A DNA stretch of 61,511 nt, filler included. It is 15 parts of 15 records of this genome, joined end to end, with 100 filler letters (N's around TTAATTAATTAA, not from the genome) between each part and the next. Parts side by side here need not be neighbours in the genome. Positions count along the whole stretch, not along the records: positions 9,321 to 12,353 come from SRR7504441_26930; 14 more parts are not named here. One strand, 5' to 3'. Positions 150 through 33,365 of this stretch are shown piece after piece. The position numbers were made by a program, and so were the translations under genes. Numbering within the stretch: position 1 is the first letter of the stretch; each line of letters starts with the position of its first letter. The notes beneath the pieces were generated by a model. It was given only the letters and a program-made list of their open reading frames with translations, was not told the origin of the DNA and made no database searches.

Positions 150-3100
150 ATGGCGCGTTCGCCGAGTCAGGCCACGGCCAGCCTGACCAAAGCTGACTTT
201 GCGGTCATCGAGGCGCTGTATACGCTGCATGCTGAGGGCGGCGAGCTCAGATATGATGGTTTCAAGGCTGTGGTGGCAAAGCTGGCAGGGCTCGGGTTTA
301 GCACTCGGGCAGTGGTGTCTACAGAGGACGCAGTGGGTCGGTTCAGCGCGGCGGGCAGTGCGATCCTCCGCGGATTGAGCCGATCGGATCGTTTGCTCGC
401 CCTGATGTTCAAGTACGCCGACAGCCGGGATGGAAGGCAGCTCGGCGCGAGGGAGCTCGGTGCTGGGGCCGGTCTAGCGCTAAACCAGCTGCTCGTGCTG
501 TACGCCGACGCGGCCCGCGGGAGCGCCGAGCTGCTGGATGATCTGCTGTTCTTTCTGACTGACATGAGCGGTGCCGGTTGTGTGAGCAGTTATGATCTGG
601 CCGATTTTTACGCTCAAGCCACCAGGTTGGTGTACACGCTGTGCATCAACAGCGTCGGGGTCGAGCGGATGGAGCTCGGGCACCGGCTGCAGCGCGGGCT
701 GGGCGACCTGCGCACAGTGGTCCAGCTAGACTCTTTGCTTGACCAGTGCGACCTGACGCTCAAGACCGGACCTGCCAGCAGCCAGCCAGCCAGCAGCAGC
801 CTTTTCCGCAGCCTGGGCCTCTCGGATAACCAGACCATCTCGCGCGAGCAGTGGCACAGGCTGGACATCTGCGCACTCTCGCCGCTCCACCGCAGGCTCA
901 GCCGAATGCTCCGCTGCTCACTCGACTGGTCTGGTCACTCAGAGTTCCTAGTCCCAGCTCTCGAGCTTCCAAGGCTCTGCCTGCCTGAGCCAGCCTCCCC
1001 GCCAGCTGCGGAGCCCGCGGACGCCAGCCAGGCGATAGAGCACCTGACCAGCCTGAAGCAGCTCCGGGACGCAGGGCTGGTCCCTCCGGCCGAGTTCGAA
1101 GCGCGCCGCGCCCAGATCCTGGACAAGATCACAGCCACCCAGCACCCGCCCCAGCCCGAGCCGGCTGAAGCGGCCAGTGCGGGCACGGTGCGCCAGCTGG
1201 ACGTTGGGCTGGCTCGGCGGCTGTTTGATCGAATTGACTCGGACCACGACGGGCACCTAACTGAATCGGAGGTGGTGGCCGCGATCGAGGGAATGCAGAG
1301 CGAGCGCGGGCGGGATTGGGCTGGAAATTACCACGATAAGATCAGCCTGCTGGTGCGGCGAGACCTGCCCAAGTATGACTTGGACGGCAATGGCACGCTC
1401 GAGTTTAGCGAGTGGCTCAGAATGCTCACACACAAGCCGTGGTCAGCGCTGCTTGAGCCTCACGGGGAGGAGCCGATCGAGCAGGCCGCGCGGCTGTTCG
1501 AGCTGGCTGACACGAATGGTGACGGTCAGCTCGATTATGAGGAGCTTCACTCTTTGCTGGTTGAGCTGTGCGGCCAGCTGGGGCACGAGTGGTTGGTCAG
1601 GCAAGGCTCGCTCGAGCGGCAGCTTGAGCTCGGCATGCTCGAATACGACACCGACGGGGATGGCCAGCTCAGTTCAGCCGAGTTCAGCCGGATGCTCCAA
1701 CACAGGCCGTGGTCTGAGCTGCTCGGGCTGGCGAGCTCGTCTGTGCGGGTGGCCCGGAGGCCTGATGGTAAGCTCACAGGCAGCTGCTCTCCAGCGCGAG
1801 ACGATTACGACATGATGGGTGTCTCGAGGGCAGCCGATCTGCGCGCATCTGCCTTCAACGCGGCAGCAGCAGCCTCGGTTCGGGCGGCGGAGAAGGCGTT
1901 CAGGCAAGCGGATACGGACCATAATGGTTACATAGACGAGCAAGAGCTGCTTGAGGCGGTCGAATGCCTGGAGACCCAGCTGGGCGAGACCGGGCTGGAG
2001 AAAGAGCAGCTGGTCGCCCGTGCATTCGAGCAGTTCGACATCGATTGTGATGGGCGTATTGACCTGGTCGAGTGGAAGCAGATGCTCTCTTTCGAGCCCT
2101 GGAGCCAGCTGCTGCCCTCCGCGGCAAGCGAGGCAGTTGGCCCGAGCCGGCACAAACAGTATGTTAAGGCGGCTAAGCCGGAAGCCAATTCGAGGATACA
2201 GGCCCGACTAAGGGTCCAGGCCGAGATCGGAGCCGCCCGCAGGGCAGCAGGGGTGCAACCTGAGGAGATCGAGCCTGAGCCTGCGCCAAAAGTGGAGCTC
2301 CAGGCACCCACCCCACTACAAGCTTCGGTGCGCAATCTTGAGTACCCAACCAAGGACGAGCAGCAGCTGAGCATCACCCTGTATACCCCAGCCAATGATA
2401 AGCCTTCAGCGGCAGCAATAGTGTTTCCAGCGCACGAGGAATGCTTTCATGAGCAAGCAGACGTGCCCAACACGCCTTTCGAAGGCGCAATGTGCACAAA
2501 CTTCAACAAGTGGTCGCTCTGGTGCGAATGGTACTGCAGTCGTGGGCTGTTTGTTGTTTGTGTCAATGTCAACCCATCCAGGGAGAGCGAGCTAGCCCAC
2601 TACTTTGACGCCCAAGCCGCGGTGGATTATTGCATTCACCAGCTTCAGCTGCCTGTGCACCAGCTGATTTGTCATGGGCTCGGGTTTGGGGCAGCCCTTG
2701 CCTCCGCTGCGGCAGTTGCCAATCCAGGCTTGTCATTGACTGTAGATCAGGGCTTTGTGAGTGCCACCGAGTTTATTGACGGGGCTCAGACTTGGAACGG
2801 CTGCATGAGGCAGTTTGGGCCGGCGGTCCAGCTGGCCGGGGCGATCACCATGCCGATGCCTGGCTGGATTGGGCGCAGCCTGGGGATTGGGTCGCACACT
2901 CTAACCAAGGGCGAGTGCGATCTGCGGCTGCCGGGTTACCAGACCGATTGGTACGACAACGAGAAGAAGGCCTTCAGGTTGTCCGGTCACTGTGTGGTCA
3001 TGTACGCAGTGCTCGATTCAGTGATGCGCCCTGACTTCCCGGTCAGGCTGTTTGATGCGTGCTACGCGCATAAGGTGCACTGCCGCTGGCCACTGTTGAC

Positions 3101-3287
3101 TCGCAGCGTACAGGTCGAGGATTTGGGCAAAGTGAAAAGTGAGCGGCTAATCCAGGTGACTGGCCAGCACGGCGTGTTCTTCGGCGAGGACAGCGAGGCC
3201 TCACACAAGTATGAGCAGTTTTTGGCTAGCATCGGCCTTATGCAACCGCGTGATGATAGTTCAACGGTGCTCATGCTGCGCTTATAA
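150..3287 (+). CDS. Multi-EF-hand protein with SHOCT motif and C-terminal ABHD-like alpha/beta-hydrolase fold (nucleophile Ser absent)
   Basis: 1045-aa ORF. At least six EF loops (DSDHDGHLTESE, DLDGNGTLEFSE, DTNGDGQLDYEE, DTDGDGQLSSAE, DTDHNGYIDEQE, DIDCDGRIDLVE). SHOCT-like LTSLKQLRDAGLVPPAEFEARRAQIL. Hydrolase-like DAQAAVDY..ICHGLGFGAALA..DQGF..D..GQH. Probable in-frame 39-nt GT-AG intron at 3075-3113. Confidence 0.8.
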   Translation: MARSPSQATASLTKADFAVIEALYTLHAEGGELRYDGFKAVVAKLAGLGFSTRAVVSTEDAVGRFSAAGSAILRGLSRSDRLLALMFKYADSRDGRQLGARELGAGAGLALNQLLVLYADAARGSAELLDDLLFFLTDMSGAGCVSSYDLADFYAQATRLVYTLCINSVGVERMELGHRLQRGLGDLRTVVQLDSLLDQCDLTLKTGPASSQPASSSLFRSLGLSDNQTISREQWHRLDICALSPLHRRLSRMLRCSLDWSGHSEFLVPALELPRLCLPEPASPPAAEPADASQAIEHLTSLKQLRDAGLVPPAEFEARRAQILDKITATQHPPQPEPAEAASAGTVRQLDVGLARRLFDRIDSDHDGHLTESEVVAAIEGMQSERGRDWAGNYHDKISLLVRRDLPKYDLDGNGTLEFSEWLRMLTHKPWSALLEPHGEEPIEQAARLFELADTNGDGQLDYEELHSLLVELCGQLGHEWLVRQGSLERQLELGMLEYDTDGDGQLSSAEFSRMLQHRPWSELLGLASSSVRVARRPDGKLTGSCSPARDDYDMMGVSRAADLRASAFNAAAAASVRAAEKAFRQADTDHNGYIDEQELLEAVECLETQLGETGLEKEQLVARAFEQFDIDCDGRIDLVEWKQMLSFEPWSQLLPSAASEAVGPSRHKQYVKAAKPEANSRIQARLRVQAEIGAARRAAGVQPEEIEPEPAPKVELQAPTPLQASVRNLEYPTKDEQQLSITLYTPANDKPSAAAIVFPAHEECFHEQADVPNTPFEGAMCTNFNKWSLWCEWYCSRGLFVVCVNVNPSRESELAHYFDAQAAVDYCIHQLQLPVHQLICHGLGFGAALASAAAVANPGLSLTVDQGFVSATEFIDGAQTWNGCMRQFGPAVQLAGAITMPMPGWIGRSLGIGSHTLTKGECDLRLPGYQTDWYDNEKKAFRLSGHCVVMYAVLDSVMRPDFPVRLFDACYAHKVHCRWPLLTRSVQVEDLGKVKSERLIQVTGQHGVFFGEDSEASHKYEQFLASIGLMQPRDDSSTVLMLRL

Positions 3288-3314: not shown

Positions 3315-3414
3315 NNNNNNNNNNNNNNNNNNNNNNNNNNNNNNNNNNNNNNNNNNNNTTAATTAATTAANNNNNNNNNNNNNNNNNNNNNNNNNNNNNN
3401 NNNNNNNNNNNNNN
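3315..3414. other. Artificial contig-joining spacer (first of 14)
   Basis: 44 N + TTAATTAATTAA (stops in all six frames) + 44 N. Identical spacers at 9221-9320, 12354-12453, 16639-16738, 20916-21015, 24951-25050, 28378-28477, 31487-31586, 35651-35750, 40325-40424, 44155-44254, 49316-49415, 53499-53598, 57730-57829. Confidence 0.99.
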
Positions 3415-9220: not shown

Positions 9221-9450
9221 NNNNNNNNNNNNNNNNNNNNNNNNNNNNNNNNNNNNNNNNNNNNTTAATTAATTAANNNNNNNNNNNNNNNNNNNNNNNN
9301 NNNNNNNNNNNNNNNNNNNNGCCCAGCTTGGGTGGGGTCTGAGCGCACATGCATTAGACAACGAACTTGTACTCGTACTAGTACTTGAATACAGCTGCAG
9401 CCCAGTTTAAACCTCGAGCAAATCCGAGGACAGCGCGCACCCTCAAACCA

Positions 9451-12003
9451 ATGACCCCGTCGGAGGGCGCGGCGGCCCGTGCGGCGCTCAAGCGCAAGCA
9501 CTCGGAGCTCAACAAGCTCAAGGATGCCTTACACCCGGCCTGGTCCCCCCGGCCGCTCGGGACCAGGAACAAGAATGCTCCCCGCCCCGACAGCCACAAC
9601 CCCAAGCGGTCGCGCCGGGCCTCGTCGGCTAACACCAGCCAGGCGGATCCCGGAGAGAACTGGTACGAGAAGGTGCTCGGCCGGGACCCGCGCGGCGAGC
9701 TCATCCCGGCCAAGGAGGCCGAACTACTTCTCGGATTGCCAGTGCCGCCCAGCTGCACCCAGGTCGAGTTCGTTGACGTGGCCGGTCGGCCGGTGCCGCT
9801 GTTCCAGAGCCAGAGCAAGTCGGGCTACTGCTCGGTCCGGAAGGACGTACGGGACCGACAGGTCCAATGGAGCGTCAACAGCAAAGGGATCCCCCCGGGT
9901 AGCTACACAGATAAGAAAGCCGCCGCGGTCGCCTTCTCGCAGGCCTTGACCAGCACGCTCTACCCGCGTTGCTGCGAACCGGAGAACAACACGCCTCGAC
10001 ACGGGTGCCAGCCCACGAGCTCACCAGGTTGCAGCCTGACGGCGCCCACTCAGCTCCCGAGTGGCGCTCTAAGCGACCAGCCAGACGACAAATCTGGGTG
10101 GGCAAGCCAACTGTACGACACTGAGAGCTCCGGTCGGTCCAGTCGCAACCTGGCCAGGAGCATCTCGGAGGACTCCATGTCAGAGCCCAAGCGAGGCGGA
10201 CTTGCCGACAAGTTCATTGAGATTTGGCGGGGCGACACCGAATTTGTCGGCTGGTACCGTGGCAAAGTGTGTGACTACGACTGTACCACCATGCAGTACA
10301 CGGTGCTTCTCGACAAGGGCGGTACGATCGACGTCGACCTAAAAGAGGAGCGCTGGGCCGAGTCGCATGAGCATCGGCTGCGCAAGGAAGCCCTTACCCA
10401 GCAGGAGGCTCTCTCCAAGTACGGCCTCTGCCCGGATGGCTCGCATCAGCCGCCCCAGCTGCCCGCCCCGAGCAGTTCACAGGAGGAGAAGCTACCCGCT
10501 GCAGGGTGTCCAATCGAGGTCTGGTTTGGTCCGCCGTACAAGGGCTGGTTCCGTGGGACTGTGCTCGAGATGGATGCGCAGACAAAGCGGCACCAAGTCC
10601 AGTTTGACGATGGCGAGATCAAGTCTCTCGAGCTAATCTACGAGAACTGGGCACTTTCACAAGAGAACCAGCTGCGGCTCAAGGGGCTGACTGAGAAGGA
10701 GGCTGAGCGCAAGTACGGACTGGTGCGAAAGCCAGTGCATCGAGAAGTCAAGCCGTCGATGAGCCTGGCTGAGATTTGCGAGAGCACTGCCAAGACTGGC
10801 TCGGTGGAGATGGCAGCCGAGATGCCTGCCTCACTTGGAGCTGCGGCACACCTGTTGGGGCCAACAGTGGGCGACCAGGTGCAGCTGATTGGCCGCCGGT
10901 CAGAGATGCGGGCGGTAGTGAGTTTTGTGGAGCGTGTAATGGGTGCGTCGGAAGGTCATGACCAGAGCAAGGCGCTGTTCGTGTGCGGAATGCCGGGGTC
11001 TGGCAAGACAGCACTTGTTAACCACGTGTGCCGGGGCGCTGCCCAGTGGTGCAAGGCGCGGCAAGGGCTCCATTTGCTCCAGCTGAACGCCATGCACATC
11101 CTGGAGCCGCGCACATTGTACACCGAGGTGCTGCGAGGGTTGCAGAACGTGCGTGCCGAGAGTGGGTCGGATGCGTCAGACGACCTGCGGGCGCTGCAGG
11201 CGCAGGTCTGTGCACCTGGGCGGGCTAAGCTCCTGCTAGTAATTGACGAAGTGGACCAGCTGCATACTCGCGAGGAGGAGGTGCTCAACACCCTGTTTGA
11301 GATGGCCGCCCTGCCCGGCTCGAGGCTTGCCCTGATTGGGATTGCCAACAGCCTCAACATGGACCAGCAAGCGCTCAGCTCCGGGCTACCGCCTGAGCAG
11401 CTCACCTTTGAGCCTTACACCACCAAGTCAATCGCTGAAATCATCCGGTCCCGGCTACCTATGCCACACCGGGACTCGTTCGTGCCAGCTGCAATTGACA
11501 TGTGTGCGTCTAAAGTGGCAATCAGCGGGCACGGCGACATTCGGCGGGCGTTTGACATCTGCAGGGCAGCTATCAAGCAAGCCGAGGACCAGGCCGACTG
11601 CCGCGTGGGGGTGCCGCACCTGGCGGTCACCATCCGGCGGCTGCTTGGAGGCAAGCAAGTGGCTGCGTGTGCATCACTGCCACAGGCACACCAGGTTGTG
11701 TGCTGTGGGCTTGTCAAGGCGTTTGGCGCGGTGCCAGACGGCTCGGATATGGGGCTAGAACAGTTGCATCGGGCTTACAAAGCCTTCTGCAAGCTGCATG
11801 CAGTGCCGCTGTATTCGCTTGGCGAGTTCCTGGACGTGCTGCAAATGCTCGACTCTCACGGACTGCTCCGAGTGGCCGACAGCAAGCAGCTGGCTCAGGT
11901 GCGAGTCCGACCGGTGATCTCCGAGGCCGAGGTTCGGCAAGCGCTCGAGACTGGCGAGGGCAATTTTCATAAATATCTGCTTAATGCGCCAGTGCGCACG
12001 TGA
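9451..12003 (+). CDS. CDC6: Cdc6-family replication-initiation AAA+ ATPase with long N-terminal extension (AP2-like + two Tudor-like modules)
   Basis: Walker A GMPGSGKT, Walker B LVIDEVDQL, TLFE..LIGIANSL (sensor 1), FEPYT..IIRSRL, CASKVA..GDIRRAFDICR (sensor 2), winged-helix SLPQAHQVV. DQL/TLFE/LIGIAN fit Cdc6 better than Orc1. No introns. First ATG 9451 (ORF open from 9385). Confidence 0.85.
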   Translation: MTPSEGAAARAALKRKHSELNKLKDALHPAWSPRPLGTRNKNAPRPDSHNPKRSRRASSANTSQADPGENWYEKVLGRDPRGELIPAKEAELLLGLPVPPSCTQVEFVDVAGRPVPLFQSQSKSGYCSVRKDVRDRQVQWSVNSKGIPPGSYTDKKAAAVAFSQALTSTLYPRCCEPENNTPRHGCQPTSSPGCSLTAPTQLPSGALSDQPDDKSGWASQLYDTESSGRSSRNLARSISEDSMSEPKRGGLADKFIEIWRGDTEFVGWYRGKVCDYDCTTMQYTVLLDKGGTIDVDLKEERWAESHEHRLRKEALTQQEALSKYGLCPDGSHQPPQLPAPSSSQEEKLPAAGCPIEVWFGPPYKGWFRGTVLEMDAQTKRHQVQFDDGEIKSLELIYENWALSQENQLRLKGLTEKEAERKYGLVRKPVHREVKPSMSLAEICESTAKTGSVEMAAEMPASLGAAAHLLGPTVGDQVQLIGRRSEMRAVVSFVERVMGASEGHDQSKALFVCGMPGSGKTALVNHVCRGAAQWCKARQGLHLLQLNAMHILEPRTLYTEVLRGLQNVRAESGSDASDDLRALQAQVCAPGRAKLLLVIDEVDQLHTREEEVLNTLFEMAALPGSRLALIGIANSLNMDQQALSSGLPPEQLTFEPYTTKSIAEIIRSRLPMPHRDSFVPAAIDMCASKVAISGHGDIRRAFDICRAAIKQAEDQADCRVGVPHLAVTIRRLLGGKQVAACASLPQAHQVVCCGLVKAFGAVPDGSDMGLEQLHRAYKAFCKLHAVPLYSLGEFLDVLQMLDSHGLLRVADSKQLAQVRVRPVISEAEVRQALETGEGNFHKYLLNAPVRT

Positions 12004-12453
12004 AGACAACAAAGACAGTTGGCCATGTGCATCATGTACAATCCTCCACAGTAAAGCAAATGAAGTAGGCTCAAAGCAAGACGTGGATTGCAGCCAATGG
12101 CGTTGATGCGCGTACGTATGACCATTTCAAGTAATCCAGTCAGACTCTCTACCCGGGTTCGGTAGCCACCAATTTGCAAATCGGTGGGGTAAACTTGAAA
12201 GCTGTAAAAACCTACATGTAGTAGTAACAATATAGTGCTCACAGAGCTATATATACATCATTATCCTTGAGCGAAACCGGCTGCTGCACGCACCGGCAAC
12301 GTAAAATAAAAAGCTGCGGCAATGGGTATGGCCGACCCTACAGCCCTACATAGNNNNNNNNNNNNNNNNNNNNNNNNNNNNNNNNNNNNNNNNNNNNTTA
12401 ATTAATTAANNNNNNNNNNNNNNNNNNNNNNNNNNNNNNNNNNNNNNNNNNNN

Positions 12454-21015: not shown

Positions 21016-24000
21016 TCAGTGATTACGCCGTCCCCATTCCGATCCATCCGGTCAAACTCATCCTCGACTTCATCGTCATAGGTGACGTGGCGCTGCGTTG
21101 GTCGGCCACTATCCACGTTTACCATGTTGGCCCACCTGGGTTGGGCATCACCAAAGTCTGCCAGGCGCATCGTCTGTAACCGGGCTTGAAATCTCTGGAC
21201 TGCGTCTGACAGACTAGACACATCCATATTGCCTATCGCTCTCATCTCAAGAGCACGGCTCGCCTGAAAACGCACAAATTGTCAGACTAATGCACACTCA
21301 AAGCAGTAAGTGTTGAGCGCACCTGGTGAACAAGCTTGACAAAGTTGCCATACTGCAGCACACCAACACCAGAGTAGTCAAACGAGCTTAAAAGTGCGGC
21401 AGACACTTCAGGTGCACAGTAGAGTCCCATCCCCCTCAACCCATCACTAAACTGCTCCAAAGACATACCGAATCGGCTGCCGTTTGTCCAATTCTGAAAG
21501 ACTTGTTTTGTGGAAACCTCCGAGGGCATCCTTTCTGATATCTGTGCGAGCATTGCGACTGCATTGGTGATGTAGGCTGCGTGCTGCATGCCAGGAGGGC
21601 CAAGCTGTGACTGCGCTGGATTGATTGGTTTGGGCGAATTCGCGGCAATGAATGTGCCACCGCCAATAGGGACGTTGACAGGGACTGGAATCGGTTGCTC
21701 CCCCCACCGACTATTATCCAAGCTGTTCATCTGGTCGGCCAGATTCTCATTTTCACGGCGATAGCCCGCAAGCAGTGCCTCCTGCTCGCGGATCTGGCTC
21801 TCCATGTCTTCGAGCTCGTCGACAGTACAGCCGTTGCTCAGCATGCCGCCATGCTGCAGTCGATCACGATTATTCCTGCTGGCCTGCATCTGCATTTGCT
21901 GCATGAGCTGCTGGTTGGCGTGTCTGGTCTGTCGAAGCTCCTCTTGGATAAATGCAGTGTTGGATCCAGGACTTCCACGCTGCTGTCCATAAGCATTTGC
22001 AAACTCTCGTCTGTCAATCACTCCATCGCCGTTGGTGTCCATTGCACGAAATGCAGCACCCGGCGAGCCGATGGCGTCAAAAGAGTTGCGGTTAACCTTC
22101 ACCTTCAGAGCATTCGACACGGCTGTCTTAAACTGCACAGTGCTGTAGCCGTCAAGCACGTGCATGAGCACGAACTCGACAAACTCGGGCCGCGAGAGGC
22201 TGTTGTTGAAGTCATTATGCAACTTGCTTAGACTTGCGCCCTGCAAACAAAAGTCAGATGACGGACAGGCAAGCTCAGGACGCACTGGACGAGCTTGCAT
22301 TGCTTCTATCAGGGGCCGCAACACAAAGTGGCCGAGGTAGCCCCCGCCGTGTGCATCGAGGCGATCAAATATCTCTAGGAGCATCCCCACGATAAAGCAT
22401 GTGAACTCGTCGAGATTGAGCCGTCCGGTGTTTGTGCTGAAGAGCCGCTGTCTCTCGATCAAGCCTCTTCTGCTCTCACCTGCAACAAAGCAAACACATC
22501 AAACGCATCAGGTAAGGCAGATTCCAAAATGATTCATGATAGAGTGCTTTAGGCAGCGGTCTCACTGGGGCGATTGGGACGAGTGTCGAGGAATGCCATC
22601 ACGTATTCATTTGTGATCCTACCAAGGTCCCGCTTGAGGATAGAACGGATGTCTCGGACCTGCAGCCAGCTGAGCATCCACTTCACATGGGTAAACTTGT
22701 TACCTCTGAGGTACTGATCCGACCTTCGTTTGCATGATCCAGCCTCCTATGGAGCTTGAAGACGCTGTCTTGGCTCAACGCACTCAGCTTGACACCGGCC
22801 CATTCGCCTTCCATCTCATTAGACCCGGTAGGAATTCTGCGCTTTCCACCAAGCATGATCAGCTGTAGAAGCCCCTGCTTGATCTCTCCTGCCCTCATCC
22901 CCACAATCATTGTGGTCACGATGTAGTCGATGAACACGCCCCTCTCGAGCTCAGCATTTGCGCCGCCAAAGCTCCGCATCATCTGTGCGTGATCGCGTCC
23001 CAGCGCCCTGCTCACAAGCTGCAATTCTCGCGAGTCCAGTGAGCCATTTTTGTTTCTATCCAAACGGTCAAAGGTGCCAAGCAGCACTTCTGTCAAGAAA
23101 TCGCGGAACTCTGGCTGGTGTATCCGCCCGTTCCGATCCTTATCAATCATGGCCATCAGCCTCTGGTTCTGCGCCTGGCCCCAGTGCTCACTAAGTGTGT
23201 CGCCCATTGCCGTCAGTTCGGAACTGTTAATGTAACCATTGCGGTCAACGTCCATTAGATTAAATAGCTGTAGTATCCGACTCTCAGGTGAGCCACCACC
23301 AGTTATGCCGTCACCACCCAGGAGAATCAGGTTAGCAAGCCCTTTAAGGCTGGATCCACCGCTCCGGACTGCCTGAATGCAACATGATACCACAAACCAA
23401 ACAAAGTGTGGACGTGACACTCTGTTTGAGCCAAGCTGGTTGAGCAGGGCTTCATGCTGGCAGTTGAAGGCAGCGCTGACACGCCTGAGTTCACGGTCTT
23501 CAAGGAAGCCGGTCCTGTCCTTATCAAGCCGGTCAAAGGCTGTGAGCAACATTTTCAGAATGAATGAGCCAAACTCTGGTGGATATACTCGTTGGTCCCC
23601 ATCTCGATCCAGCATAGACATCAAGTCTCTATTATGCTCTGGCGACCAGTGTGATTGCAGTGCTTGCCCGAGGGAAGCAAGCTCACGGTGGTCGAGAAAT
23701 CCGCTGCGATCACGATCAAGCAGCTGGAACAGCTGATTTATCATTGCTTTGGCGTCGTCCGGAGAACACTGTGACCCACCGCCACCACCAGGGCCCCCGC
23801 CACCCATTAAAAGCAGTGCAATCAAGCCTTGCTTAAACCTGCCGCTCTGTACAGCAGCAAGGCAGTGCCTGGCGACCCAGGCGACAAACGCTTGGCGAGC
23901 CAGTCGACCAGAGGGATCCATTCCCATCTGGTACAGGGTATCACGTGATGATTGCCCAAATGCGGTACTGATTTGCTGCAGTTCACCAGCTTCAAGCCAG

Positions 24001-24950
24001 CCAGATCGATCTGTGTCCAGTCGCTGGAAAGCAGTCTCCACTGCCCGGATGAGGAAGTCGCGAAACTCTGCATAATGAACCCGGCCATTCCGATCGCCGT
24101 CGATCAGCTGGAGCAGCCTGCTGTTCTGCTCGTGCGACCAGTTCTGCTGTAAGGTCTGTCCAAATGCACCCAACTCTCGGTTGTCCAAAAATCCACTGCG
24201 GTCCCTATCCAGACGCTGGAACAGCTCTTTGATAGTCGACTCTTGGGTGTTGCCGTCTGGAATGTCATCCCCGCCAAGCACAATGAGCTTGGCCAGTGCC
24301 TCGTGGTAGGTGCCTCGACTCATGTTTTGCAGGCATTCGCACACAATGAAGACCACCCATTGAGCACGCTGGACTGAGCCAGACCCAAAATTACGCATCA
24401 CGTCAGCATGATTCCGTCCAAGTGCCCTGCTTACTCTTTCCAGCTCATGGGAACCTAGGTAGCCATTTTGGTCCTTGTCAAGTCTATCAAATGCTGTCAA
24501 AAGCATCTTGACGATAAAATCCTTGAACTCTTCGATGTCAATACCACGCTCGCCATCCTTGTCGATCATTCCCATGAGGAGATTATTCTGATCTCGGTTC
24601 CAGTGTTTGGTGAAAGTCTTACCCCACTGGCCAAGCTCGTTGTGATCAATCGTTCTGTCGCACACAGGGATTCAGTTCCTAAGCCAAAGTGGTCTAGAAA
24701 AAAATCTAGTGGAGCATAAATATGAGCCTCACCCAGAGTTATCCCGATCAATCATCTGAAAGAGTTGTCGCAGCCGACCTTCAACTTCAGGCATGCGAGC
24801 AATCTGCCAATGCGATCCTGACACAGACAGGATGAGCTGCAATAGACACGAAATGAACAAGGGTCACCTTGACCTTGTCCATTGTATAATGGATCGATGT
24901 TACCATGAGCTCGATATTGAAGCCCGTCCCCGCCCATGATGAGCACATGC
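21016..24950 (-). CDS. Very large tandem-repeat EF-hand protein, open at both contig ends
   Basis: At least four ~155-aa repeats, each with three D-x-D-x-x-G loops (e.g. DRDRSGFLDNRE, DGDRNGRVHYAE, DTDRSGWLEAGE) and ending L-I/L-x-L/M-GG. Followed by further EF loops, a Q-rich coiled coil and DRNGDGVI. ORFs are linked by longer AT-rich introns. Confidence 0.8.
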
Positions 24951-31586: not shown

Positions 31587-31616
31587 AGCGGGCATTCCGT
31601 AATTGATCGTGATGCT
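31587..31616. repeat. 30-bp perfect inverted repeat at the two termini of one contig (partner 35621-35650)
   Basis: AGCGGGCATTCCGTAATTGATCGTGATGCT at 31587-31616; its exact reverse complement is at 35621-35650. Confidence 0.95.
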
Positions 31617-33365
31617 GCGGCCCTGACCGGTGGTGACTGTATGCCTCCAGCCTGCAGGAAGTACCAACACATCGCCTGGTTTTAGATCTACGTCAACTCC
31701 ATGCTTGGACTCGGAGAAGAAAGCATGCCCATTCTCTGGGTTCATCTTGTCCAGCTTATTATAATCGGGGGTTGAAACTCTGAATCGTTTTGTGGTGCCC
31801 ACCAAATTCACGATGACTTGTGTAAAGTTATCAGCGTGACAAGTTGTTAATTGAGGTGCGTTAGTGCTGCCTTTGACAAACATTCTGGTTGGGGCCCGAT
31901 CACGTCCACTGGCTCTCGCTACCTTGACCTGCTGGTTGATGACTGTGTTGAGAGGGCGTGGCAGCAGCTCCTTCTTCATTCGGCAGTTCGGGTCGCCTTC
32001 CTCAAGTGGAGAAGCGCCGTGATGTTTTTTATCAGTAGCGGCGAAGTGCCACTGGCCATCTGCGTCGACTATGCAACTGCCTGCAGGCAACTCGCAGTAG
32101 GCAAACGCCGACCTGTGCACTTCAGACATGGTCAGTTCAGACCAATCCGCCTCGCTGGACTGTGAGCCGCTTTTTGTCGCCGCCTTGAATTTAATGCTCT
32201 CGTCCACAAGCTCCAAAAAATACTTGACGTTGTCCCATTTCTGCACAGCAGGCAGATCGGAGGCAAGCCCGCAGAAGAAATGTGGTCGCATTGGCTCGCT
32301 CCAAAGGCTCAGTATGGCACGTTCCTCTGTCATTACCGTTCTCTGATCCACTTGTTCTCTAAACGACTCGATCAGCTTGCCTGTGTCGCCCCACACCTGT
32401 TCCCGCACCGAACGCACACCGGGAGCAATCCGATTACCAACCTGCTGGGCCCACCAGTCTCTGACGGACTTGCAGCCGCCCTCTGCAAGCGGTGGCGTGT
32501 TTAGATCGAAGTCAGCGCCGGCGGCATGCAGAATGGCGATCAACATCTGGGCTTGATCCTGTACAATCGGATCCGGCAGTGCTTGGACAGCCCGACCAGC
32601 AGCAGTCCAGCCTTGTGCATCCTTCGCATCTATCTGTCCATCGCCGACAAGCTTCGCTAGTGTATCAGTATTGTCGTCCAGCAACCGAGTTAAAGAAAGA
32701 TCTAGTATTGGCTGTAACTCGGTCTGGCCTCCGGTCTGGTCTCCTTGGCCTCCGGTCTGGCCTCCTCCTCCGGTCTGCTGCGTCTCTTCATGCACCTCAG
32801 TCTCCTCCTCTTCCTCCTCTTCCCCATCCACCACCACTACTTCTTCCTCCTCCTCCTCCTTCCCCGGCTGGCTTGCATCCTCGTGTGCCTCCGCCGCCGC
32901 CTCCTCACGCAGCTGCTGGTGTGCATCCGGTGCCGCCGAGGCCTGCTGCTGCTGCGATGCTGCTTTCAGCGGCTTCTCGCACGATGCGCACTTTTTCCTT
33001 CGCGCGTTCTGCTTCATTACTACGCAACAGAATGGGCATCGGACGTACCCAGGCCGGACCGCCTGGCAAACATCGCATTGCATGCACTCGTCCCGATTGC
33101 GCAGGGTGCACTGCCCGCACACCCACTCTTGCTTGGGCTTCTTGACCGGGTCAGGCGCAGCTGGGCTGTCTGCGGGCCGTTTGCGCTGCGGGCCGTCTGC
33201 TCGGAGCAGGGCGATCTCCCGGTCTCTGGCGGCCAGCTCCTCTCGCAGACGGGCCAGCTCGCGCTCCATCGACTCCCGATCCGCCTGTGCGGCCCGCAGC
33301 GCCCCAGCCAGCTGCTCCACCAGCCCTGCAGCCGTGACCAGCCCGGAGGCTGTGCCAGCCTCCAT
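31587..33365 (-). CDS. RanBP2-type zinc finger + JmjC/cupin protein, 3' truncated
   Basis: WVCGQCTLRN....CDVCQAVRP zinc finger, a second CxxC..CxxC, acidic and QTGG low-complexity linker, JmjC TTCHADN..LKPGDVLVLPAGWRHTV..SITINY. Intronless. Confidence 0.82.

What the first reader, a model, noticed from the sequence alone, without database searches (positions are those of the whole stretch)
9814..12003. Cdc6 fused to an AP2-like domain and two Tudor-like repeats
Seen: in one intronless ORF, upstream of the Cdc6 AAA+/WH core, lie SKSGYCSV..W..PGSYTDKKAAAVAF (about 9814-9950, AP2/ERF-like pattern) and two ~70-aa repeats (IEIW..GWYRGKV..YTVLLDKG..DLKEERW and IEVW..GWFRGTV..HQVQFDDGE..ELIYENW). 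Each repeat is followed by a shared LT..EA..KYGL tail. No Arg is visible in the usual box VII segment after sensor 1. Established: chromatin readers (BAH, PHD) normally sit on Orc1, while Cdc6 has a short disordered N-terminus; the repeats resemble plant PDS5/MSH6-type Tudor domains. Inference: origin selection may be partly delegated to Cdc6 through DNA-sequence and methyl-histone reading.
Basis: partly seen in the sequence, partly recalled or inferred. Interest (0 to 1): 0.7.

Follow-up and report, generated by a model that had tools for sequence, protein, structure and literature searches.

The report
Cdc6-type replication loader with tandem Tudor readers
A marine protist gene joins two histone-reader-type (Tudor) domains to the DNA-replication licensing ATPase Cdc6, which normally has no such reader, so chromatin marks may steer where this organism loads its replication helicase.

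Summary
The ORF is real: 9451-12003 (+), 850 aa, uninterrupted, with coding-type GC3 along its whole length. Its C-terminal half is a Cdc6/Orc1 initiator ATPase with lid and winged helix. It scores higher against Cdc6 than against Orc1 of fly, human and yeast. So does its ortholog, whereas a PHD-bearing Orc1 control scores the other way.

The two ~70-aa repeats are real (40% identity over 78 aa, E 1e-17). They belong to the PDS5/RDM15 "PTM/DIR17-like" Tudor kind: 46 of 49 relatives list PF21743, and the best PDB match is the RDM15 Tudor, 7DE9. Repeat 2 keeps the aromatic cage (F359, F367, F385, D387). Repeat 1 does not.

The Tudor-Cdc6 fusion recurs in two independent sequences, one from a metagenome and one from a protist transcriptome. 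Box VII has no arginine, and an independent DNA contig confirms this.

The AP2 claim is unproven. Pfam and PDB give no hit and the AlphaFold models are poor; only language-model neighbours point to haptophyte AP2 clusters.

The window is 15 contigs joined by linkers, so the neighbouring genes say nothing. Verdict: a new variant of a known kind, of moderate interest.

The parts
9451..12003 (+). Whole ORF, 850 aa plus stop (P0001). The piece of assembly that carries it is 9321-12353.
   Evidence: GC3 0.66-0.90 throughout
9451..9759 (+). N-terminal basic, low-complexity stretch (residues 1-103) with KRSRR and two S/T-P sites. No family match.
9760..9969 (+). Identity unproven.
   Evidence: No Pfam or PDB hit. 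Atlas feature neighbours are haptophyte AP2 clusters at 0.90-0.91. AlphaFold models are poor.
10210..10359 (+). Tudor repeat 1 (residues 254-303). Cage positions are R260, Y269, L287, K289, G291, i.e. degenerate.
   Evidence: Pfam PF21743 12.9 bits, E 0.097
10360..10428 (+). Tail 1 (residues 304-326), ...LRKEALTQQEALSKYGL; part predicted helical (H217-223 of the model = residues 317-323).
10507..10653 (+). Tudor repeat 2 (residues 353-401). Cage F359, F367, F385 plus D387 and E389 are kept.
   Evidence: 7DE9 E 1.5e-4; Pfam Tudor/Agenet 22-23 bits; cage residues from PMC8184781; Foldseek top hit 7de9_A
10654..10722 (+). Tail 2 (residues 402-424), ...LRLKGLTEKEAERKYGL; predicted helical.
10723..10881 (+). 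Linker (residues 425-477) with a conserved basic stretch, R-K-P-V-H-R-E-V-K-P...L-A-E-I-C.
   Evidence: invariant columns R426, R431, K434, P435, L439, E441, C443 in the three orthologs
10882..11415 (+). AAA+ base (residues 478-655): Walker A GMPGSGKT 513-520, Walker B LLVIDE 595-600, sensor 1 IAN 631-633, then a box VII stretch without arginine (634-652).
   Evidence: DNA contig 11279-11504 identical
11416..11610 (+). Cdc6/ORC-type lid (residues 656-720) with sensor 2 GDIR 695-698.
   Evidence: PF22606 34.3 bits (cutoff 27)
11671..11949 (+). C-terminal winged helix (residues 741-833).
   Evidence: PF09079 23.2 bits (cutoff 25.1); aligned to the end of the human Cdc6 and Orc1 chains

Best explanation
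The gene encodes a Cdc6-type helicase-loading ATPase of a marine protist, probably a haptophyte or a relative. A chromatin-reading module has been added in front of the ATPase. The module consists of two PDS5/RDM15-type Tudor domains, each followed by a short helical tail. Shown: the ATPase motifs for ATP binding and hydrolysis are intact, and the lid and winged helix are present. Also shown: Tudor repeat 2 keeps the aromatic cage and an adjacent carboxylate, and the Tudor-Cdc6 fusion is conserved in at least three organisms. Inferred: repeat 2 docks on a methylated lysine, likely on a histone tail and possibly in a low methylation state. Repeat 1 and the tails would act as scaffold. In this way Cdc6 would be concentrated on marked chromatin and would bias where ORC-Cdc6 loads Mcm2-7. 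The loss of all arginines in box VII fits a Cdc6, whose box VII faces the non-catalytic Orc2 side, but it implies a changed Orc2/Cdc6 contact. The N-terminal AP2-like segment may add DNA binding, but this is unproven.
For: Cdc6/Orc1 core: AAA_22 41.9 bits, AAA_16 41.1 bits and the Cdc6-ORC lid 34.3 bits are all above their cutoffs. PDB E-values are 2.5e-36 to fly Cdc6 and 7e-34 to human Cdc6. Walker A, Walker B, sensor 1 and sensor 2 are present. Cdc6 rather than Orc1, in bits, Cdc6 vs Orc1: window C-terminal part, fly 132.9 vs 99.5, human 122.3 vs 115.4, yeast 72.6 vs 36.5. Three-ortholog profile: 164.5 vs 130.5, 161.1 vs 148.2, 100.4 vs 60.6. Ortholog P0002: 133.6 vs 93.9, 141.2 vs 104.1, 85 vs 53.3. 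The control P0068, which carries a PHD and matches Arabidopsis ORC1B, goes the other way: Orc1 184-187 vs Cdc6 99-106. In the Walker B to sensor 1 stretch of 41 residues I count 28 identities to fly Cdc6, 23 to human Cdc6 and 13 to human Orc1 (read by eye). Tudor: the internal repeat has E 1e-17. There are 49 relatives at E<=1e-3, the best non-ortholog at E 1.3e-21. 46 of those 49 list PF21743, and their partner domains are PDS5, SET, bromodomain and the like. 7DE9 matches at E 1.5e-4 and is the top Foldseek hit. The cage mapping to W616/Y623/Y641/D643 of RDM15 rests on passages of PMC8184781, and F359, F367, F385 and D387 are invariant in the three orthologs. Fusion conserved: P0002 and P0019, a transcriptome ORF. 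Fly Cdc6 box VII arginines serve the non-catalytic Orc2/Cdc6 contact (PMC7450096 passages).
Against: No binding or replication function was tested. Human Cdc6 and human Orc1 give nearly equal domain scores for the window protein (113.8 vs 115.1), and no proper phylogeny could be made. The Pfam Tudor models stay below their cutoffs (22.4 vs 27.2). The RDM15 residues that hold H3R2 are not kept (E647 -> K391; Q654 -> E398), so the target mark is unknown. No typical Cdc6 regulatory motifs were found: no full CDK site, KEN box or Cy motif in the N-terminal half. Whether the organism has another Cdc6 or an Orc1 is unknown. Independent contigs do not bridge 10042-10162, between the AP2-like part and Tudor 1, or 10802-10950.
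Confidence: 0.6

Rival explanations
1. It is the Orc1 of this lineage, or the lineage's only Cdc6/Orc1 protein doing both jobs. In that case a Tudor module replaces the BAH domain as the usual Orc1 chromatin reader.
For: The layout (reader domain, long linker, basic stretch, AAA+, winged helix) is that of Orc1. Human Orc1 and human Cdc6 give nearly equal domain scores (115.1 vs 113.8). In a survey of 132 eukaryotes, 20 keep a single CDC6/ORC1 copy, some sequences could not be assigned, and BAH is patchy in ORC1 (PMC7058166 passages).
Against: Cdc6 scores exceed Orc1 scores for all three species with the window protein, its ortholog and the ortholog profile, while a true Orc1 control reverses the order by about 80 bits. 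The Walker B to sensor 1 core is Cdc6-like. Recalled, not seen in a call here: in ORC-Cdc6 Orc1 supplies the arginine finger to Cdc6's ATP site; this protein has glycine where human Orc1 aligns an arginine in S-S-R-L.
Confidence: 0.17
2. It is a Cdc6 paralog that has left replication licensing, as Sir3 left Orc1, and now acts as a chromatin-bound AAA+ factor in silencing, repair or another process.
For: All arginines of box VII are lost and 4-5 residues are deleted where fly Cdc6 contacts Orc2/Orc3. Reader domains have been added. Recognisable Cdc6 regulatory motifs are absent.
Against: Walker A, Walker B, sensor 1 and sensor 2 are intact, and the winged helix aligns to the end. The ortholog P0002 keeps two of the box VII arginines. 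No second Cdc6 is known for the organism.
Confidence: 0.15
3. The fusion is an assembly or gene-model artefact: a chimeric contig, or two genes read as one.
For: The piece is a short 3033-bp contig in a linker-joined assembly. Two stretches of the ORF, 10042-10162 and 10802-10950, are not bridged by the four runs laid.
Against: Two independent sequences carry Tudor plus Cdc6 in one frame. An environmental contig bridges Tudor 1 and Tudor 2 (10163-10579), and another runs 10443-10801. One frame, no stop, and uniform GC3. This evidence does not cover the link between the AP2-like segment and Tudor 1, which rests on the window alone.
Confidence: 0.04

Closest known systems
Eukaryotic Cdc6 (fly and human Cdc6 in ORC-Cdc6 structures 7JGR and 8RWV)
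   Same: AAA+ base with Walker A, Walker B, sensor 1 and sensor 2, the Cdc6/ORC lid, and a C-terminal winged helix. These are the best PDB matches.
   Different: A 477-residue N-terminal arm with two Tudor domains, where (from general knowledge, not checked in a call) Cdc6 has only a short disordered, CDK-regulated tail. No arginine in box VII, and that stretch is 4-5 residues shorter. No Cy or KEN motif found.
Orc1 with its BAH (and, in green plants, PHD) chromatin reader
   Same: The logic of a histone reader placed in front of an initiator AAA+ and winged helix. Sequence similarity is close to that with Cdc6.
   Different: Scores favour Cdc6, while a PHD-bearing Orc1 control favours Orc1. 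Glycine stands where human Orc1 aligns the arginine of S-S-R-L.
RDM15/PDS5C Tudor domain (PDB 7DE9; Pfam PF21743 PTM/DIR17-like Tudor), an H3K4me1 reader
   Same: Best PDB match of repeat 2 by sequence and by fold. The cage aromatics and one of the two carboxylates are kept. Four of the 49 relatives carry a PDS5 domain.
   Different: The Pfam score is below the cutoff. The H3R2-binding Glu and Gln are not kept. Each Tudor carries an extra tail that the matches of most other relatives do not reach. Repeat 1 has lost the cage.
MSH6-Tudor and MSH6-PWWP fusions (histone readers fused to a DNA-transaction enzyme)
   Same: The same evolutionary move: a histone reader is fused to a core DNA-metabolism protein so that a chromatin mark directs where it acts (abstract of bioRxiv 10.1101/2024.10.15.618488).
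   Different: The enzyme here is a replication licensing ATPase, not a mismatch-repair protein, and the lineage is not a plant.

Membership tests
Cdc6/Orc1 initiator clade of AAA+ ATPases | Walker A GxxGxGK[ST] and Walker B hhhhDE | tested here: met
   GMPGSGKT at 513-520 and LLVIDE at 595-600; invariant in 17 aligned relatives
Cdc6/Orc1 initiator clade of AAA+ ATPases | Sensor 1 Asn (IAN) and sensor 2 Arg (GDxR) in a Cdc6/ORC-type lid | tested here: met
   IAN 631-633 and GDIR 695-698; PF22606 34.3 bits vs cutoff 27
Cdc6/Orc1 initiator clade of AAA+ ATPases | Box VII arginine(s) after sensor 1 | tested here: not met
   No Arg in 634-652. The stretch aligns with a 4-5 residue gap to fly and human Cdc6 and to human Orc1. 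P0002 keeps two upstream Arg but not the one aligned with A-R or S-R. The sequence is confirmed by an independent DNA contig.
Cdc6/Orc1 initiator clade of AAA+ ATPases | C-terminal winged-helix domain | tested here: met
   PF09079 is below its cutoff (23.2 vs 25.1), but residues 741-833 align to the C-terminal ends of human Cdc6 and Orc1.
Cdc6 orthologs (as against Orc1) | Closer to Cdc6 than to Orc1 of the same species | tested here: met
   Bit scores favour Cdc6 in 3 of 3 species for the window protein, the ortholog and the ortholog profile; the Orc1 control is reversed. The human pair is close for the window protein itself (122.3 vs 115.4).
Cdc6 orthologs (as against Orc1) | Placement in the Cdc6 clade of a broad phylogeny; a separate Orc1 in the same genome | not testable with these tools
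   No labelled Orc1 set could be fetched. No genome is held.
PTM/DIR17-like Tudor (Pfam PF21743; PDS5/RDM15 type) | Match to the family model above its gathering score | tested here: not met
   22.4 bits vs 27.2 for repeat 2; 12.9 bits for repeat 1
PTM/DIR17-like Tudor (Pfam PF21743; PDS5/RDM15 type) | Significant sequence relatives that are members of the family | tested here: met
   49 relatives at E<=1e-3, down to 1.3e-21 for non-orthologs. 46 of the 49 list PF21743 (29 of 30 at E<=1e-3; 17 of 19 at E<=1e-6).
PTM/DIR17-like Tudor (Pfam PF21743; PDS5/RDM15 type) | Aromatic cage and carboxylates of the methyl-lysine pocket (RDM15 W616, Y623, Y641, D643, D645) | tested here: met
   Repeat 2 has F359, F367, F385, D387, E389, with F/F/F/D invariant in the orthologs. 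Repeat 1 has R260, Y269, L287, K289, G291, so it does not meet this feature.
PTM/DIR17-like Tudor (Pfam PF21743; PDS5/RDM15 type) | Tudor (SH3-like barrel) fold | tested here: inconclusive
   The single-sequence model is poor overall (pLDDT 40.8; repeat 2 reaches 59-76). It predicts four strands per repeat. The top Foldseek hits are 7de9_A (E 4.5e-3, TM 0.68 on the target) and other Tudor/Agenet readers, none at E<=1e-3.
AP2/ERF DNA-binding domain (Pfam PF00847) | Match to the family model | tested here: not met
   0 families at E<=10 for residues 91-190, and no AP2 row for the whole protein.
AP2/ERF DNA-binding domain (Pfam PF00847) | Three-stranded sheet packed on one helix | tested here: inconclusive
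   Model 1 gives strand-strand-strand-helix at pLDDT 36-45. Model 2, of the segment alone (pLDDT 51.1), gives a different, strand-rich topology. Foldseek finds no AP2.
AP2/ERF DNA-binding domain (Pfam PF00847) | Relatives that carry AP2 | tested here: inconclusive
   There are no sequence relatives for this segment. The Atlas feature neighbours at 0.90-0.91 are haptophyte clusters: 9 of 30 hits, and 21 of 30 hits among named clusters, fall in the set represented by a cluster with AP2 on 12% of its members. By the tool's own figures such scores occur with 4-10% of shuffled proteins.

The most novel reading that the evidence does not exclude
In this protist lineage the co-loader Cdc6, not Orc1, carries the chromatin-targeting module: a cage-competent Tudor plus a divergent AP2-type DNA-binding domain. 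Helicase loading sites would then be chosen at the Cdc6 step by a histone methyl mark together with a DNA motif. This would be an origin-selection logic not described for any eukaryote.
Probability: 0.2. Interest if true: 0.8.

Novelty: new variant of a known kind. Interest (0 to 1): 0.55.

Why it matters
How eukaryotes without sequence-defined origins choose licensing sites is still open. The known chromatin readers of the licensing machinery sit on Orc1 (BAH, and PHD in plants) or on accessory factors. A conserved Cdc6 with its own methyl-lysine reader would show that targeting can be built into the co-loader. It would also add replication licensing to the list of DNA transactions (mismatch repair through MSH6, cohesion through PDS5) that have recruited this Tudor type. 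The idea can be tested directly with recombinant domains and histone peptide arrays.

Tried and rejected
- **Genome look-up:** no genome is held, so a second Cdc6 or an Orc1 could not be sought.
- **Word-indexed homolog search, residues 100-460:** no hit.
- **Same search with a 17-sequence alignment, meant to collect labelled Orc1 and Cdc6 for a tree:** it returned only one protein, P0068. No real phylogeny was possible. An in-box phmmer ranking of the 19 fetched relatives was not informative on Cdc6 vs Orc1.
- **Metagenome contig scan with the ortholog alignment:** 144 pattern matches, none confirmed. I did not use the second scan, because the window's own motif variants were already in the patterns.
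- **AP2 tests:**
  - Pfam on the fragment gave nothing, and PDB phmmer gave only a chance Csm2 row at E 1.7.
  - BLASTP against P0022, a metagenome protein with a weak AP2 match, gave only E 13, and that alignment fell on its NUMOD-like repeat, not its AP2.
  - AlphaFold of residues 96-180 alone reached pLDDT 51.1, and Foldseek on it gave only chance rows at E>=0.58.
- **Reads:** the four runs laid are contigs that cover only parts of the gene. The stretches without cover (9806-9890, 10042-10162, 10802-10950 and others) say nothing either way. The first read-laying run failed on the N linker.
- **Earlier findings of this scan:** none by place, sequence or words.
- **Literature:** searches for Cdc6/Orc1 with Tudor or BAH and for Cdc6 with Tudor domain or haptophyte listed no paper that describes a Tudor-Cdc6 fusion. 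I saw listings and abstracts only. The supplementary architecture figures of PMC7058166 were not visible and might show one.
- **Neighbouring genes:** rejected as context, because they lie on other contigs.
Full report
**What is in the sequence.** The window is not one stretch of genome. It holds 15 pieces joined by linkers of 44 N, TTAATTAATTAA and 44 N. The gene lies alone on a 3033-bp piece, 9321-12353, so the neighbouring genes are not genomic context. Those neighbours are EF-hand proteins, a P4-ATPase, UBA1, a JmjC protein and a Glu/Gln-tRNA synthetase fragment.

The ORF runs from the ATG at 9451 to the stop at 12003 (850 aa, P0001). GC at third codon positions is 0.66-0.90 in every block of 50 codons, against 0.53 and 0.46 in the 5' and 3' flanks. 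The whole ORF, N-terminal part included, therefore looks coding in this one frame.

**Independent cover.** No whole genome is held. Near-identical pieces of the stretch occur in marine metagenomes and in oligo-dT RNA libraries. Four runs were laid. All pieces are colinear, and no joints were seen.
- One DNA contig bridges Tudor 1 and Tudor 2 (10163-10579).
- One DNA contig covers 10443-10801.
- One DNA contig covers 11279-11504, the box VII region, with no difference.
- RNA contigs cover 9655-9805 and 9891-10041, parts of the AP2-like segment, and several parts of the ATPase.

Nothing bridges 10042-10162 or 10802-10950. These runs are contigs, so the gaps prove nothing.

**The C-terminal half.** Pfam gives AAA_22 (41.9 bits), AAA_16 (41.1) and the Cdc6/ORC lid (34.3), all above their cutoffs. 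The Cdc6 C-terminal winged helix scores just below its cutoff, 23.2 vs 25.1. PDB matches run through to residue 833. Fly Cdc6 has E 2.5e-36, human Cdc6 7e-34 and human Orc1 9e-33. Walker A (GMPGSGKT, 513-520), Walker B (LLVIDE, 595-600), sensor 1 (IAN, 631-633) and sensor 2 (GDIR, 695-698) are all present.

**Cdc6 or Orc1.** I could not build a labelled phylogeny. The word-indexed searches returned 17 relatives, three of them named Cdc6 or Cdc6-like and none named Orc1. The follow-up with an alignment returned one further protein. As a substitute I compared bit scores against solved Cdc6 and Orc1 of the same three species.

| Query | Fly Cdc6 vs Orc1 | Human Cdc6 vs Orc1 | Yeast Cdc6 vs Orc1 |
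|---|---|---|---|
| Window protein, C-terminal part | 132.9 vs 99.5 | 122.3 vs 115.4 | 72.6 vs 36.5 |
| Profile of the three orthologs | 164.5 vs 130.5 | 161.1 vs 148.2 | 100.4 vs 60.6 |
| Ortholog P0002 | 133.6 vs 93.9 | 141.2 vs 104.1 | 85 vs 53.3 |

The control was P0068, which has a PHD finger and matches the Arabidopsis ORC1B reader region. It gives Orc1 184-187 bits against Cdc6 99-106, so the comparison does discriminate.

In the 41 residues from Walker B to sensor 1 I count 28 identities to fly Cdc6, 23 to human Cdc6 and 13 to human Orc1 (read by eye from the alignments). Against this, the best-domain scores for human Cdc6 and human Orc1 are nearly equal for the window protein, 113.8 and 115.1.

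A survey of 132 eukaryotes reports that 20 keep a single CDC6/ORC1 copy and that some sequences cannot be assigned (PMC7058166, passages). I put Cdc6 orthology at roughly 0.75-0.8.

**Box VII.** Between IAN and F-E-P-Y the window protein reads S-L-N-M-D-Q-Q-A-L-S-S-G-L-P-P-E-Q-L-T. It has no arginine, and it aligns with a 4-5-residue gap against fly and human Cdc6 and human Orc1. Glycine stands where human Orc1 aligns the arginine of S-S-R-L. The ortholog P0002 keeps two upstream arginines (E-R-F-L-P-R-L) but also lacks the arginine aligned with A-R or S-R.

[quoted passage not shown] The loss is therefore compatible with a working Cdc6 ATPase. It does predict an altered contact with Orc2 and Orc3.

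**The repeats.** Residues 254-326 and 353-424 align at 40% identity over 78 residues, E 1e-17. A phmmer search with residues 101-450 against 1.84 billion representatives gave 49 proteins at E<=1e-3, matching on the repeat region. Of these, 46 list Pfam PF21743, the PTM/DIR17-like Tudor: 29 of 30 at E<=1e-3 and 17 of 19 at E<=1e-6. The three that do not are P0019, P0053 and P0057.

The partner domains of these relatives are chromatin-related: PDS5 in 4, SET, bromodomain, BTB, FAR1 and WD40. The window protein itself stays below the Pfam cutoffs: PF21743 22.4 bits and Agenet 22.9 bits for repeat 2, and 12.9 bits for repeat 1.

The best solved relative of repeat 2 is 7DE9_A, E 1.5e-4. This is the Arabidopsis RDM15 Tudor bound to H3K4me1 (PMC8184781, passages). 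Even the poor single-sequence model (pLDDT 40.8; repeat 2 reaches 59-76) finds 7de9_A first in Foldseek (E 4.5e-3, TM 0.68 on the target). Other Tudor and Agenet readers follow, none below E 1e-3.

**The methyl-lysine pocket.** I mapped the RDM15 pocket through the alignments.

| RDM15 residue | Repeat 2 | Repeat 1 |
|---|---|---|
| W616 | F359 | R260 |
| Y623 | F367 | Y269 |
| Y641 | F385 | L287 |
| D643 | D387 | K289 |
| D645 | E389 | G291 |

F359, F367, F385 and D387 are invariant in the three orthologs. L287 also recurs in the repeat 1 fragment of P0019. The RDM15 residues that hold H3R2 are not kept: E647 is K391 and Q654 is E398. Repeat 2 therefore looks like a working methyl-lysine reader of unknown target, and repeat 1 looks like a structural partner.

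The tail after each repeat (L-R-K-E-A-L-T-Q-Q-E-A-L-S-K-Y-G-L and L-R-L-K-G-L-T-E-K-E-A-E-R-K-Y-G-L) is predicted helical at least in part. It is kept in the orthologs. The best matches of most other relatives end before it.

**The fusion is conserved.** Two independent sequences carry Tudor and Cdc6 in one frame (alignment).
- P0002 is 511 aa, from a 1574-bp metagenome contig, 53% identical over the ATPase part. It carries Tudor 2, the tail, the linker and the whole Cdc6 core.
- P0019 is a 298-aa ORF of a Trinity transcript in EukProt. It carries the end of Tudor 1, tail 1, Tudor 2, tail 2, the linker and the start of the ATPase.

Both are cut at their N-terminal ends, so neither says anything about the AP2-like segment. 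Only 1 of the 49 Tudor relatives (P0019) has an AAA+ match, so the fusion is confined to this small clade.

**The AP2-like segment.** The tests gave the following.
- Pfam gives no family at E<=10 for residues 91-190.
- PDB gives nothing relevant.
- No relative covers it among 1.84 billion representatives.
- BLASTP against P0022, a metagenome protein with a weak AP2 match (27.4 bits, cutoff 33.3), gave only E 13.
- Model 1 predicts strand-strand-strand-helix here, but at pLDDT 36-45.
- The segment folded alone reaches pLDDT 51.1 with a different topology, and Foldseek finds no AP2.

The one positive sign comes from the ESM Atlas. The nearest clusters by features (0.90-0.91) are all haptophyte. 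They include one named 'AP2/ERF domain-containing', and 9 of 30 hits fall in the set of a cluster where AP2 is on 12% of members. Among named clusters that set holds 21 of 30 hits. By the tool's own figures such scores arise with 4-10% of shuffled proteins, so this is a lead only.

It fits a haptophyte background: AP2/ERF makes up 33% of the predicted transcription factors of Emiliania huxleyi (PMC4827209, passages). I put an AP2-type fold at about 0.4.

**Most likely mechanism.** The protein is a Cdc6-type co-loader whose added arm tethers it to methylated chromatin through Tudor 2. Licensing would then be favoured on marked chromatin. The domains and the conservation of the fusion are shown. 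Binding, the target mark and the replication role are inferred.

The rivals are as follows.
- An Orc1, or a sole Cdc6/Orc1 protein: 0.17.
- A paralog that has left licensing, as Sir3 left Orc1: 0.15.
- An artefact: 0.04.

**Novelty.** Two literature searches listed no Tudor-Cdc6 fusion (listings and abstracts only). The main text of the ORC evolution survey has no occurrence of 'Tudor', and its supplementary architecture figures could not be seen. The parts are known and the combination is new, so I rate this a new variant of a known kind, with interest 0.55.

Noticed in passing
window 3315-3414, 9221-9320, 12354-12453 and 11 further sites: The window is 15 contigs of 3.0-5.8 kb joined by 44 N + TTAATTAATTAA + 44 N, a linker with stops in all six frames. 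Gene order across linkers carries no meaning.
   Followed up: yes
P0022 (883 aa, ENA metagenome; not in the window): This protein combines a weak N-terminal AP2 match (27.4 bits, below the cutoff), three or more PDS5-type Tudor domains and many NUMOD1/I-HmuI-like repeats. AP2-plus-Tudor architectures may therefore exist in environmental protists.
   Followed up: partly
window 9321-9391: An environmental DNA contig (run X2) matches from 9391 onward but carries 40 unlike letters upstream of it, and it has one extra A after 9419. The 5' flank differs between populations or assemblies.
   Followed up: no
window 12159-12244: The 3' flank shows several small insertions and deletions between the window and two environmental DNA runs (11 letters put in, and 4, 6, 3 and 1 left out). 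The coding part shows only 5 single-letter differences (plus 3 in the 3' flank).
   Followed up: no
window 150-3284 (+), 21287-22384 (-) and 22683-24575 (-): Three long ORFs on separate contigs are rich in EF-hand pairs (PF13499 up to 170 bits).
   Followed up: partly
window 31587-33365 (-): This ORF has a JmjC/cupin match (PF13621 36.3 bits, PF08007 30.7 bits) and runs into the contig end, so the protein is truncated.
   Followed up: partly
P0068 (1207 aa, ENA contig of 51.8 kb; not in the window): An Orc1-type protein with a PHD finger that matches the Arabidopsis ORC1B reader region. It was used here as the Orc1 control.
   Followed up: partly
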